The position numbers are program-made. DNA of 64,000 nt, taken from NCBI RefSeq assembly GCF_013167455.1, contig NZ_CP038328.1; one strand, given 5' to 3'. This document shows, one piece after another, positions 1 through 3,000 of this stretch. Source of the stretch: Escherichia coli O157:H7. GTDB lineage: Bacteria > Pseudomonadota > Gammaproteobacteria > Enterobacterales > Enterobacteriaceae. Every line of letters begins with the position of its first letter. Position 1 is the first letter of the stretch.

Positions 1-3000
1 TTGAAGGCCTGCGCCGTTTGCGCGAAATCCTGCAAACGCAGGGGCTGAATATCGAAGCGCTGTTCCGCGAGTAAGTAAGCATCTGTCAGAAAGGCCAGTC
101 TCAAGCGAGGCTGGCCTTTTTCTTTTGTTTGGGAAGCTTGTGTTTTTGTCGCCTGGATAAGACACGTCAGCGTCCTACCCGGCAATTTGCATCCTATGTG
201 TTCATCATCTTGCGCACCAGCTGCACAAACAGCTCCTGCTCTTCTGCACTCAAACGCCCCAAAAATTCCTCATCCACGCTGTCACCAATCGGTATCGCCG
301 CAGCAAGTATCTTTTCTCCTTCGGCAGTCAGCCAGACAAAGCGACGCCGCTTGTCAGCGGCATCATGTTCACGTCTGACTAAGCCACGATTCTCCATTCT
401 TGCCAACATTTCTGCCAACGTTGCTTTGGTGCTGACTGCTGCTTCTATCAGTGCCACCTGTTCGATACCAGGCTTATCAGCAATGGCGCGCATCACCGCA
501 TACTGTGGTTTGGTCAGGTCAGGTAACTCGTGCTGCCAGCGAGCCGTGTGCTGCTGAAAAAGCTGTCGTAACTGATGGAACGCTTTATTTCGTAACGTCA
601 TGTAAACTCCGGGCAAACTATCTGCCGCTATCATAGCGGTTTTTCAGTGACGAAGGGGATGTTGTTACTTTTCAGTGCTTGCCGCAATGAGAACAGAGGC
701 GTATTTTAATAATAATGTTCGTATACGAACAATTAAGAGAGTAAGCAATGAAACTGATCGTCGGGATGACAGGGGCTACCGGTGCGCCTCTTGGTGTGGC
801 ATTACTGCAAGCGCTGCGGGAGATGCCGAATGTCGAGACTCATCTGGTGATGTCGAAGTGGGCGAAAACCACCATTGAACTGGAAACGCCTTACAGCGCC
901 CGCGATGTTGCTGCCCTCGCTGACTTCAGCCATAACCCGGCGGATCAGGCGGCGACCATCTCCTCAGGTTCCTTTCGTACAGACGGCATGATCGTTATTC
1001 CGTGCAGTATGAAAACGCTCGCCGGTATCCGCGCTGGTTACGCTGATGGCCTGGTAGGGCGCGCGGCGGACGTCGTGCTTAAAGAAGGCCGCAAACTGGT
1101 GCTGGTGCCGCGTGAAATGCCGCTTAGCACCATCCATCTCGAAAATATGCTCGCACTTTCACGCATGGGCGTGGCGATGGTGCCGCCGATGCCTGCCTTT
1201 TATAACCATCCCGAAACGGTAGATGACATTGTCCACCACGTGGTAGCCCGCGTGCTGGATCAATTTGGCCTTGAACATCCCTACGCCAGGCGCTGGCAAG
1301 GATTGCCGCAGGCCCGGAATTTTTCTCAGGAGAATGAATAATGGCATTTGATGATTTACGCAGCTTTTTACAGGCGCTTGATGACCACGGCCAGTTACTG
1401 AAAATCAGCGAAGAGGTGAACGCGGAACCGGATCTGGCTGCCGCTGCCAACGCCACCGGGCGTATCGGCGATGGTGCACCGGCGCTGTGGTTTGATAATA
1501 TTCGCGGTTTTACCGATGCCCGCGTGGCGATGAATACCATCGGTTCCTGGCAGAACCACGCGATTTCCTTGGGCCTGCCGCCAAACACCCCGGTTAAAAA
1601 ACAGATTGATGAGTTTATCCGCCGCTGGGATAACTTCCCGATCGCCCCGGAGCGCCGCGCCAATCCAGCCTGGGCGCAGAACACCGTCGATGGTGACGAG
1701 ATTAATCTGTTCGATATCCTGCCGCTGTTTCGTTTAAACGACGGTGATGGCGGTTTCTATCTCGACAAAGCGTGCGTGGTTTCCCGCGATCCGCTCGACC
1801 CGGATAACTTCGGCAAGCAGAACGTCGGTATCTACCGCATGGAAGTGAAGGGCAAGCGTAAGCTCGGCCTGCAACCGGTGCCGATGCACGATATCGCCCT
1901 GCATCTGCATAAAGCGGAAGAGCGCGGTGAAGATCTGCCGATTGCCATCACCCTGGGTAACGATCCGATCATCACCCTTATGGGCGCCACGCCGCTGAAA
2001 TACGATCAGTCTGAGTATGAAATGGCAGGCGCGCTGCGCGAAAGCCCGTACCCGATCGCCACCGCGCCATTGACTGGTTTTGATGTGCCGTGGGGTTCAG
2101 AAGTGATCCTCGAAGGGGTTATCGAAAGCCGCAAACGCGAAATCGAAGGGCCGTTCGGTGAGTTTACCGGGCACTACTCCGGCGGGCGTAACATGACCGT
2201 GGTGCGTATCGATAAAGTCTCTTACCGCACCAGGCCGATTTTCGAATCGCTGTACCTCGGCATGCCGTGGACCGAAATCGACTACCTGATGGGGCCAGCC
2301 ACCTGTGTGCCGCTGTATCAACAACTGAAAGCCGAGTTCCCGGAAGTGCAGGCGGTAAACGCCATGTACACCCACGGCCTGCTGGCGATTATCTCCACCA
2401 AAAAACGCTACGGCGGCTTTGCCCGCGCGGTGGGCCTGCGTGCGATGACCACGCCGCACGGTCTGGGCTACGTAAAGATGGTGATTATGGTCGATGAAGA
2501 CGTTGACCCGTTCAACCTGCCGCAGGTGATGTGGGCGCTCTCCTCGAAAGTAAATCCGGCAGGGGATTTGGTGCAGTTGCCGAATATGTCCGTGCTGGAA
2601 CTCGACCCTGGCTCAAGCCCGGCGGGGATCACCGACAAGCTGATTATCGACGCCACCACGCCTGTCGCCCCGGACAACCGTGGTCACTACAGCCAGCCGG
2701 TGGTGGATTTGCCGGAAACCAAAGCCTGGGCTGAAAAACTGACCGCTATGCTGGCCGCACGTAAATAAGGAGAACAAGATGATTTGTCCACGTTGTGCCG
2801 ATGAACAGATTGAAGTGATGGCGAAATCGCCGGTGAAAGATGTCTGGACGGTATATCAGTGCCAGCATTGCCTTTATACCTGGCGCGATACCGAACCGCT
2901 GCGCCGTACCAGCCGCGAACATTATCCCGAAGCGTTCCGCATGACGCAGAAAGATATTGATGACGCGCCAATGGTGCCGAGCATCCCGCCGCTGCTGGCG

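What the first reader, a model, noticed from the sequence alone, without database searches (positions are those of the whole stretch)
602..747. Two palindromes in the divergent promoter: candidate operators for the MarR-like regulator
The 146-bp intergenic region contains a 16-bp perfect palindrome TGTTCGTATACGAACA (716-731) between the likely -10 and the RBS of the UbiX-like gene, and a second inverted repeat CCGCTAT-C-ATAGCGG (625-639) just upstream of the regulator's probable start. MarR-family dimers typically bind such pseudo-palindromes, so this looks like a classic autoregulated, ligand-derepressed switch, probably responsive to phenolic acids.
Basis: seen in the sequence. Interest (0 to 1): 0.45.

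Follow-up and report, generated by a model that had tools for sequence, protein, structure and literature searches.

The report
Known HosA operator plus promoter palindrome
The 16-bp palindrome is the already published binding site of the E. coli repressor HosA, which 4-hydroxybenzoate releases to switch on a phenolic-acid decarboxylase operon. The second palindrome is probably just the -10 promoter element of the repressor's own gene.

Summary
The window is E. coli O157:H7, with the gene order rpoS, hosA, HAD-BCD, pphB, mutS.

**Palindrome 716-731.** It contains the 14-bp sequence GTTCGTATACGAAC (717-730). This is letter for letter the published HosA binding site. HosA binding and 4-hydroxybenzoate release were shown for strain UMN026 by Roy & Ranjan 2016 and reused by Cao 2018. 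The window's regulator is 132/135 identical to crystallised HosA.

Across 72 other enterobacterial species the box is invariant at 9 positions and is G in 70 of 73 sequences at a tenth. It sits 7-11 nt (9-10 in 62 species) after a conserved TTGYNN-N17-TANNNT promoter in 70 of 72 species, so it begins at about +3.

**Palindrome 625-639.** It has no similarity to the HosA box and is statistically unremarkable. Only its core TAT-S-ATA is conserved. On the hosA strand this reads TATGAT/TATCAT. In most other genera it lies 17 nt downstream of a conserved TTAAAA, so it is most likely the hosA -10 element. The outer arms are specific to Escherichia.

**Verdict.** The switch model is right but already demonstrated. 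The "second operator" is not supported. Interest is low.

One side observation: 35 of 72 other species carry a second HosA-like box 56-57 bp upstream of the first, and Escherichia lacks it.

The parts
194..601 (-). hosA, the MarR/SlyA-family repressor (135 aa plus stop).
   Evidence: ORF and RefSeq start. It is 132/135 identical to PDB 'Transcriptional regulator HosA' 8AGA/8PQ4, E = 8e-84. The recognition helix STKATLAEML and the wing DKRRRF are nearly invariant in 73 species.
607..610 (-). hosA ribosome-binding site. It reads GGAG on the - strand, 5 nt before the ATG.
   Evidence: Read from the sequence. CTCCGG is conserved in the cross-species alignment.
625..639 (.). The 7+1+7 inverted repeat CCGCTATCATAGCGG. 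The conserved core at 630-635 reads TATGAT on the hosA strand and is the candidate -10 hexamer of the hosA promoter.
   Evidence: TATSAT is nearly invariant at a fixed 25-27 nt from the hosA ATG in most genera, and a conserved TTAAAA lies 17 nt upstream of it in most of them. The outer arms are not conserved. That it acts as a -10 is an inference; no TSS data were available.
679..684 (+). The -35 hexamer TTGCCG of the HAD-operon promoter.
   Evidence: TTG[CT]NN lies 17 nt from TANNNT in 71 of the 73 sequences scanned, window included, and 16 nt in one more. It is invariant in 9 E. coli strains. Inferred from conservation.
702..707 (+). The -10 hexamer TATTTT of the HAD-operon promoter. The predicted TSS is at about 714-715.
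   Evidence: The gap from the end of the -10 to the start of the HosA box is 9-10 nt in 62 of the 72 sequences that have the promoter pair. This fits the published statement that the site lies downstream of the TSS. The TSS itself is inferred.
717..730 (.). The HosA operator O1, GTTCGTATACGAAC. In O157 it extends to the 16-bp palindrome 716-731.
   Evidence: It is identical to the 14-bp HosA binding site used in EMSA and biolayer interferometry with 4-HBA release. Positions 2-5 and 10-14 are invariant in 73/73 sequences, and the centre varies only by transitions. It is the only exact copy in the 64-kb window.
735..741 (+). Ribosome-binding site AAGAGAG of the subunit-B gene, 6 nt before the ATG at 748.
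   Evidence: Read from the sequence. The aligned position is a conserved GAGG in other genera.
748..3015 (+). The regulated operon, encoding the non-oxidative hydroxyarylic acid decarboxylase. Subunit B (UbiX-type) is at 748-1341, subunit C (UbiD-type) at 1341-2768 and subunit D at 2779-3015.
   Evidence: NCBIfam VdcB scores 311 bits (cut-off 290), VdcC 790 (650) and VdcD 121 (30). The RefSeq product names agree.

Best explanation
The region is the divergent hosA / HAD-operon control region of E. coli O157:H7.

**The operator.** A HosA dimer binds the 14-bp palindrome GTTCGTATACGAAC (717-730). The box begins about 3 nt downstream of the transcription start of the promoter TTGCCG-N17-TATTTT (679-707). 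Bound HosA blocks RNA polymerase, so the decarboxylase genes B, C and D stay off. 4-Hydroxybenzoate binds HosA (Kd about 5 uM), releases it from the DNA and derepresses the operon, whose enzyme decarboxylates that same compound.

- Shown elsewhere by experiment: binding, 4-HBA release, repression and autorepression.
- Shown here: sequence identity of the site, near-identity of the protein, and extreme conservation of the site and its position.
- Inferred here: the exact promoter hexamers and the TSS.

**The second inverted repeat (625-639).** It is not a HosA box. Its conserved core, TATGAT on the hosA strand, is most likely the -10 element of the hosA promoter. Its longer arms are an Escherichia-specific accident. 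This part is inferred, at roughly 50-60% confidence.
For: - **Identity of the locus.** It is 100% identical to O157:H7 chromosomes, in the order rpoS, MarR-family gene, HAD B/C/D, pphB, mutS.
- **Regulator.** It is 132/135 identical to crystallised HosA.
- **Published site.** The oligo DNAHosA-F0 (CAGAGGCGTATTTTAATAATAAC-[site]-AATTAAGAGAATAAACA..) matches window 694-752 apart from allelic differences. The paper calls its site a 14-bp palindromic binding site that HosA binds and 4-HBA releases.
- **Published mechanism.** Secondary sources state that HosA autorepresses, represses the HAD operon, is released by 4-HBA, and binds downstream of the TSS.
- **Conservation of the box.** GTTCG-YRYR-CGAAC occurs with 0-1 mismatch in 71 of 72 other species and 2 in one. 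It lies 15-19 nt before the subunit-B ATG in 66 of 72. Nine positions are invariant and a tenth is G in 70 of 73 sequences.
- **Promoter.** A -35/-10 pair is found in 72 of the 73 sequences, with a 17-nt spacer in 71. The box starts 9-10 nt after the -10 in 62.
- **Second repeat.** Only TATSAT and asymmetric flanks are conserved. TTAAAA lies 17 nt upstream on the hosA strand in most genera. The outer arm bases vary within E. coli. As a palindrome it is at chance level window-wide.
Against: - The primary paper (Roy & Ranjan 2016) could not be read. The TSS position and the evidence for autorepression are known only through secondary summaries.
- The supplement of Cao 2018, as machine-read, prints the site as GTTTCGTATACGAAC (15 nt) on both strands. 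That is internally impossible and contradicts the paper's own '14-bp'. I treat it as a reading artefact, because oligo TH in the same table reads TTGTTCGTATACGAACG.
- In Escherichia the hexamer 17 nt upstream of TATGAT is CCCCTT or CTTCTT, which is not -35-like. The hosA promoter assignment is therefore weakest in exactly this genome.
- If hosA starts near 623, the operator lies about 100 bp upstream of that start. It is then unclear how the published autorepression would work through it.
Confidence: 0.85

Rival explanations
1. One reading: 625-639 is a second HosA operator. HosA represses its own promoter through it, so both palindromes are operators of one autoregulated switch.
For: HosA autorepression is reported in the literature. 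The repeat lies 24-38 nt upstream of the hosA ATG, overlapping the likely hosA core promoter. Its central part is conserved across genera.
Against: The repeat has no similarity to the HosA box: CCGCTAT/ATAGCGG against GTTCGTA/TACGAAC. Where other genera do have a second site, it is a clear copy of the HosA box at a different place, next to the HAD -35. The palindromic arms beyond CTAT/ATAG are not conserved, and most genera read GGCTATCATAGAG. The published work describes one palindromic site.
Confidence: 0.08
2. 625-639 is the binding site of a different transcription factor. Alternatively it is a hairpin (terminator or 5'-UTR stem) that acts on RNA.
For: The consensus scan flags it as terminator-like on the + strand: a 7-bp stem followed by TTTTT. 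The core is conserved at a fixed distance from hosA.
Against: No co-oriented gene ends upstream of it on the + strand. The stem and the adjacent T-run are not conserved outside Escherichia. The predicted RNA folds are unexceptional, with z = -1.7 on the + strand and -0.8 on the hosA strand. Conservation is of sequence (TATSAT), not of pairing. No candidate factor was identified.
Confidence: 0.1
3. The 716-731 palindrome acts mainly as an RNA hairpin in the 5' UTR of the decarboxylase mRNA, affecting stability or translation, rather than as a protein-binding DNA site.
For: It would be transcribed if the TSS is at about 714. It folds as a 6-bp stem with a 4-nt loop, 4 nt upstream of the RBS.
Against: The fold energy is ordinary: -6.1 kcal/mol, z = -0.43. 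The stem bases are invariant in 73 sequences with no compensatory changes. Direct HosA binding and 4-HBA release are published for this exact DNA.
Confidence: 0.03

Closest known systems
HosA and its operator in the hosA / HAD-operon intergenic region of E. coli UMN026 (Roy & Ranjan 2016, Biochemistry 55:1120; reused as a 4-HBA biosensor in PMC6261655 and PMC6694116)
   Same: It is the same locus in another E. coli strain. The 14-bp core GTTCGTATACGAAC is identical, the flanks are the same apart from allelic differences, and the divergent gene arrangement is the same. The protein is about 98% identical to crystallised EPEC HosA. The ligand (4-hydroxybenzoate) and the mechanism (site downstream of the TSS) are the same.
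   Different: O157 has T instead of C at 716, which extends the palindrome to 16 bp. There are a few substitutions in the promoter spacer and near the RBS. Nothing functional is known to differ.
PcaV and its operator in Streptomyces coelicolor (a protocatechuate-responsive MarR repressor; PDB 4FHT/4G9Y)
   Same: One of the closest structurally solved relatives of HosA outside HosA itself (E = 3e-16; 6PCP scores marginally better at 2.4e-16). From my own knowledge: it is a MarR dimer that binds a palindromic operator and is released by a hydroxybenzoate-type ligand.
   Different: The phylum, operator sequence, target operon (pca ring cleavage rather than decarboxylation) and ligand (3,4-dihydroxybenzoate) all differ.
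MarR and marO of E. coli (the archetype of the family)
   Same: From my own knowledge: a winged-helix dimer binds pseudo-palindromes that overlap the promoter and RBS region, and phenolic ligands such as salicylate relieve repression.
   Different: marO has two MarR sites and marR is the first gene of the operon it represses. Here the regulator is divergent, and Escherichia has a single recognisable box. A two-box layout exists only in other genera.
BsdA and bsdBCD (yclBCD) of Bacillus subtilis
   Same: From my own knowledge: the operon encodes the homologous B/C/D hydroxyarylic acid decarboxylase and is induced by its phenolic-acid substrates from a divergent regulator gene.
   Different: From my own knowledge: the regulator is a LysR-type activator, not a MarR-type repressor. 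The logic is activation rather than derepression.

Membership tests
HosA operator of the hosA / HAD-operon locus | The adjacent regulator is a HosA orthologue. | tested here: met
   It is 132/135 identical to PDB HosA 8AGA/8PQ4, E = 8e-84.
HosA operator of the hosA / HAD-operon locus | The regulator is divergent from a B/C/D non-oxidative hydroxyarylic acid decarboxylase operon, in the mutS-rpoS interval. | tested here: met
   NCBIfam VdcB, VdcC and VdcD all score above their cut-offs. The annotated order is rpoS, MarR-family gene, B, C, D, pphB, mutS. The divergent arrangement is present in 72 of 80 species.
HosA operator of the hosA / HAD-operon locus | The sequence equals the published 14-bp palindromic binding site. 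| tested here: met
   Window 717-730 is GTTCGTATACGAAC. The published oligos carry the same core and matching flanks. The machine-read supplement shows one extra T, which I judge to be a reading artefact.
HosA operator of the hosA / HAD-operon locus | The site lies downstream of the HAD-operon transcription start. | tested here: inconclusive
   A conserved -35/-10 pair places the TSS at about 714 and the box at about +3. This agrees with the published statement. No TSS data for this strain were available.
HosA operator of the hosA / HAD-operon locus | HosA binds the site and 4-hydroxybenzoate releases it. | not testable with these tools
   This is published for UMN026 HosA on the same core sequence (EMSA, biolayer interferometry, ITC). 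It has not been measured for the O157 allele.
Second HosA operator (claimed for 625-639) | The sequence is related to the HosA box GTTCG-N4-CGAAC. | tested here: not met
   CCGCTATCATAGCGG has no match to the box. The best second match in the intergenic region is TTTCAGTGACGAAG at 642-655, with 3 of the 10 specified positions mismatched. By my own binomial estimate, about 0.5 such matches are expected by chance in a region of this length.
Second HosA operator (claimed for 625-639) | The palindromic symmetry is conserved in orthologous regions. | tested here: not met
   The outer pairs vary within E. coli. Most genera read GGCTATCATAGAG, where only CTAT/ATAG is symmetric.
Sigma-70 -10 element of the hosA promoter (proposed for 630-635, - strand) | A TAnnnT hexamer with conserved T-12, A-11 and T-7, at a fixed distance from the start codon. 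| tested here: met
   TATGAT or TATCAT is nearly invariant, only the fourth base varies, and it lies 25-27 nt from the hosA ATG in most of the 69 sequences that have it.
Sigma-70 -10 element of the hosA promoter (proposed for 630-635, - strand) | A -35-like hexamer 16-18 nt upstream. | tested here: inconclusive
   TTAAAA or TTATAA lies at 17 nt in most genera. In Escherichia the corresponding hexamer is CCCCTT or CTTCTT.
Intrinsic terminator (either palindrome) | A GC-rich stem plus T-run, downstream of a co-oriented gene and conserved. | tested here: not met
   The pattern scan flags both palindromes. No co-oriented gene ends there. The folds are unexceptional, and the adjacent stem and T-run are not conserved.

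The most novel reading that the evidence does not exclude
The ancestral control region had two HosA boxes: O1 at about +3 of the HAD promoter, and O2 56-57 bp upstream, abutting the -35. It also had a canonical hosA promoter, TTAAAA-N17-TATSAT. Escherichia lost O2 and the hosA -35 through a deletion of about 25 nt. E. coli would then regulate hosA differently from Klebsiella and Enterobacter. The conserved core at 625-639 could be doing more than acting as a -10, for example serving as a site for another factor or as a non-canonical HosA contact that accounts for the reported autorepression.
Probability: 0.15. Interest if true: 0.3.

Novelty: already known. Interest (0 to 1): 0.1.

Why it matters
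The HosA / 4-hydroxybenzoate switch controls a phenolic-acid (paraben-derived) detoxifying decarboxylase. It sits in the polymorphic mutS-rpoS region of many pathogenic E. coli, and it already serves as the sensing part of several in-vitro 4-HBA biosensors.

Re-finding its operator from raw sequence shows that the first-stage reading was sound, but it adds no new biology.

The minor new points are comparative:
- There is a precise 10-position logo for the box.
- The core promoter hexamers are probably located.
- The second palindrome is best read as the hosA -10.
- About half of the other species examined carry a second HosA box that Escherichia lacks.

These could help anyone engineering HosA-based promoters, or explaining autorepression.

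Tried and rejected
1. **Primary papers.** I tried to read Roy & Ranjan 2016 and Ferrandiz 2005. Neither is held, so the TSS and autorepression rest on secondary summaries.
2. **Promoter from the consensus scan.** The scan gave ATGAGA-N18-AATAAT at 687-716. I rejected it as the main promoter because its -35 varies within E. coli and across genera. It would also put the TSS inside the box, contrary to the published 'downstream of the TSS'. TTGCCG-N17-TATTTT is the conserved pair.
3. **RNA hairpin or terminator readings of both palindromes.** The folds are ordinary, with z from -0.4 to -1.7. There is no upstream co-oriented gene and no covariation.
4. **A second HosA box in the E. coli region.** The best candidate, 642-655, has 3 of 10 positions mismatched, which I estimate to be chance level. 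The position aligned to O2 of other genera (about 661-675) is degenerate.
5. **Other HosA boxes in the 64-kb window.** There is no further exact copy, and the one-mismatch hits are at chance level: 4 found against 2.75 expected.
6. **A divergent hosA promoter overlapping the box.** On the - strand, TTAATT-N17-TATTAT is only 8/12 and is not conserved in other genera. I inspected this by eye in the alignment and did not pursue it.
7. **Genome-wide search for further HosA targets** (for example fliC). This was not possible with the sequence held.

Full report
**What is there.** Window 1-6400 is 100% identical to E. coli O157:H7 chromosomes. The annotated order is rpoS (its 3' end is window 1-73), a MarR-family gene on the minus strand (194-601), non-oxidative hydroxyarylic acid decarboxylase (HAD) subunits B (748-1341), C (1341-2768) and D (2779-3015), then pphB and mutS. 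RefSeq start codons agree. Both repeats are exactly as described. TGTTCGTATACGAACA at 716-731 is a perfect 8+8 palindrome. CCGCTAT-C-ATAGCGG at 625-639 is a perfect 7+1+7 repeat.

**Chance.** In 5000 dinucleotide-preserving shuffles of the 146-bp region, a palindrome with arms of 8 or more occurs in 0.8%. One with arms of 7 or more occurs in 3.2%. Across the whole window there are 26 palindromes with arms of 7 or more (spacer 0-3), against 17.9 in shuffles. The only other perfect palindrome with arms of at least 8 and no spacer is at 48338-48355, in the terminator of the MicA sRNA. The 7+1+7 repeat is therefore unremarkable on statistics alone.

**Identity of the regulator and the operon.**
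- The 135-aa protein is 132/135 identical to the crystallised 'Transcriptional regulator HosA' (8AGA, 8PQ4 and five more entries; E = 8e-84).
- Next come an unnamed MarR-family protein (6PCP, E = 2.4e-16) and the protocatechuate-responsive MarR protein PcaV (E = 3e-16).
- The three downstream proteins score above the curated NCBIfam cut-offs for VdcB, VdcC and VdcD.

**The 716-731 palindrome is the published HosA operator.** Cao et al. 2018 (PMC6261655) used HosA from E. coli UMN026 and 'a 43-bp DNA containing the 14-bp TFBS of HosA'. They showed binding by EMSA and biolayer interferometry, dissociation by 4-hydroxybenzoate, and a Kd of 4.7 uM for 4-HBA.
- Their oligo DNAHosA-F0 reads CAGAGGCGTATTTTAATAATAAC-[site]-AATTAAGAGAATAAACA...
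- This is window 694-752 with allelic differences only. It matches the allele of strains 5CRE51 and U1 in my alignment.
- The machine-read PDF prints the bold site as GTTTCGTATACGAAC on both strands. That cannot be right. Oligo TH in the same table reads TTGTTCGTATACGAACG, and the paper says 14 bp. I therefore take the site to be GTTCGTATACGAAC, which is window 717-730.
- Two preprints summarise the primary study (Roy & Ranjan 2016, Biochemistry 55:1120). HosA autorepresses and represses the HAD operon, 4-HBA disrupts DNA binding and induces the operon, and the palindromic site lies downstream of the transcription start.
- The primary paper itself is not held.

**Conservation within E. coli.** The locus is present in 2379 of 5426 complete E. 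coli genomes. In 9 diverse E. coli strains:
- The 14-bp core is invariant apart from one strain, which has TATG at the centre.
- The T at 716 that makes the palindrome 16 bp is specific to O157; the other 8 strains have C.
- Substitutions cluster in 686-705, between the promoter hexamers.

**Conservation across species.** A scan of one genome per species returned 80 species with a hosA relative. In 72 of them the subunit-B gene is divergent within 145-200 bp.
- 71 of the 72 carry GTTCG-YRYR-CGAAC with 0-1 mismatch to the E. coli sequence, and one carries 2. In 66 of the 72 it lies 15-19 nt before the subunit-B ATG.
- Positions 2-5 and 10-14 are invariant in 73/73 sequences, and position 1 is G in 70/73.
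- The four central bases change only by transitions.
- The HosA recognition helix and wing are correspondingly near-invariant.
- It is the only exact copy of the box in the 64-kb window.

**Promoter of the operon.** A TTG[CT]NN / TANNNT pair is found in 72 of the 73 sequences, with a 17-nt spacer in 71. In the window it is TTGCCG at 679-684 and TATTTT at 702-707. The box starts 9-10 nt after the -10 in 62 of the 72 (alignment). That puts the start at about 714-715 and the box at about +3 to +16, in line with the published description. The alternative hexamers reported by the consensus scan (ATGAGA-N18-AATAAT) are not conserved.

**The 625-639 repeat.**
- It shares nothing with the HosA box.
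- Within E. coli the outer base C625 is T in most strains, and one strain has TGG on the left arm.
- Across genera only the core survives, at a fixed 25-27 nt from the hosA ATG in most.
- On the hosA strand the consensus is GGC-TATSAT-AGAG. TATSAT is nearly invariant, only its fourth base varies, and the flanks are not mirror-symmetric.
- A conserved TTAAAA or TTATAA lies exactly 17 nt upstream in most genera.
- This is the signature of a sigma-70 promoter, TTAAAA-N17-TATSAT, for hosA. The palindromy is largely a by-product of the near-symmetry of TATNATA.
- Predicted RNA folds around either palindrome are ordinary. The terminator-like calls have no co-oriented upstream gene.

**Caveat on the hosA promoter.** Escherichia is about 25 nt shorter than other genera between this element and the HAD -35. 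At the -35 position it has CCCCTT or CTTCTT. The hosA promoter in E. coli is therefore either weak or lies elsewhere. How the box, about 100 bp upstream of the predicted hosA start, would give the reported autorepression remains open.

**Side observation.** 35 of the 72 other species carry a second HosA-like box, (GAT)CGTRTRCGAAC, with 2 or fewer of 10 positions mismatched. They include Klebsiella, Enterobacter, Kluyvera, Lelliottia, Leclercia and Pseudocitrobacter. The box is always 56-57 bp upstream of the first and abuts the HAD -35. It is degenerate or absent in Escherichia, Salmonella and the Citrobacter freundii group. I could not establish whether this is already described.

**Verdict.** The proposal that 625-639 is a second operator of the same regulator is not supported, and it is best read as the hosA -10 region. 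The finding is already known and of low interest.

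Noticed in passing
Related loci, e.g. L047 (Enterobacter hormaechei) 1402-1415, with the main box at 1346-1359. The aligned position in the window is about 661-675.: 35 of the 72 other species have a second HosA-like box, (GAT)CGTRTRCGAAC, always 56-57 bp upstream of the main operator and abutting the HAD -35. It is degenerate in Escherichia, Salmonella and the Citrobacter freundii group.
   Followed up: partly
window 640-678: The Escherichia intergenic region is about 25 nt shorter than in other genera. It carries a direct repeat, TTTTCAGTG, at 641-649 and 669-677. 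The missing stretch in other genera holds the -35-like TTAAAA of hosA and lies next to the second HosA box.
   Followed up: partly
window 540-800, compared with L001-L008: The control region is unusually diverse within E. coli. 1326 of 2381 genomes are only 90-95% identical to O157 here, with substitutions clustered at 686-705, while the hexamers and the box are kept. Strain CFSAN004176 has an A-to-G change in the centre of the box, and strain 1532WA has a frameshifted subunit-B gene.
   Followed up: partly
window 150-3100: The hosA/HAD cassette is present in 2379 of 5426 complete E. coli genomes. The other genomes match only the pphB end of the query. This is consistent with the known polymorphic mutS-rpoS interval.
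   Followed up: no
L060, L069, L076, L079, L085, L088 and L077: Six of the 80 species have a hosA relative (62-74% identity) with no subunit-B gene in the 1.5 kb upstream. In L077 the subunit-B gene is 599 bp away. These may be hosA paralogues with other targets, or rearranged loci.
   Followed up: no
window 48334-48405: The only other perfect palindrome with arms of at least 8 and no spacer in the window (48338-48355, 9+9) lies in the terminator of the MicA sRNA, just after the end of the ORF at 46768-48324.
   Followed up: yes
window 44792-45420 and 55003-55080: Rfam finds a cluster of five tRNA genes on the + strand and a naRNA4 (CssrE) match on the - strand. These are ordinary chromosome features unrelated to the finding.
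   Followed up: no
window 91-123: A GC-rich hairpin followed by a T-run (AAAGGCCAGTCTCAAGCGAGGCTGGCCTTTTTC) lies just after the rpoS stop codon, between the convergent rpoS and hosA genes. It is presumably the rpoS terminator.
   Followed up: no
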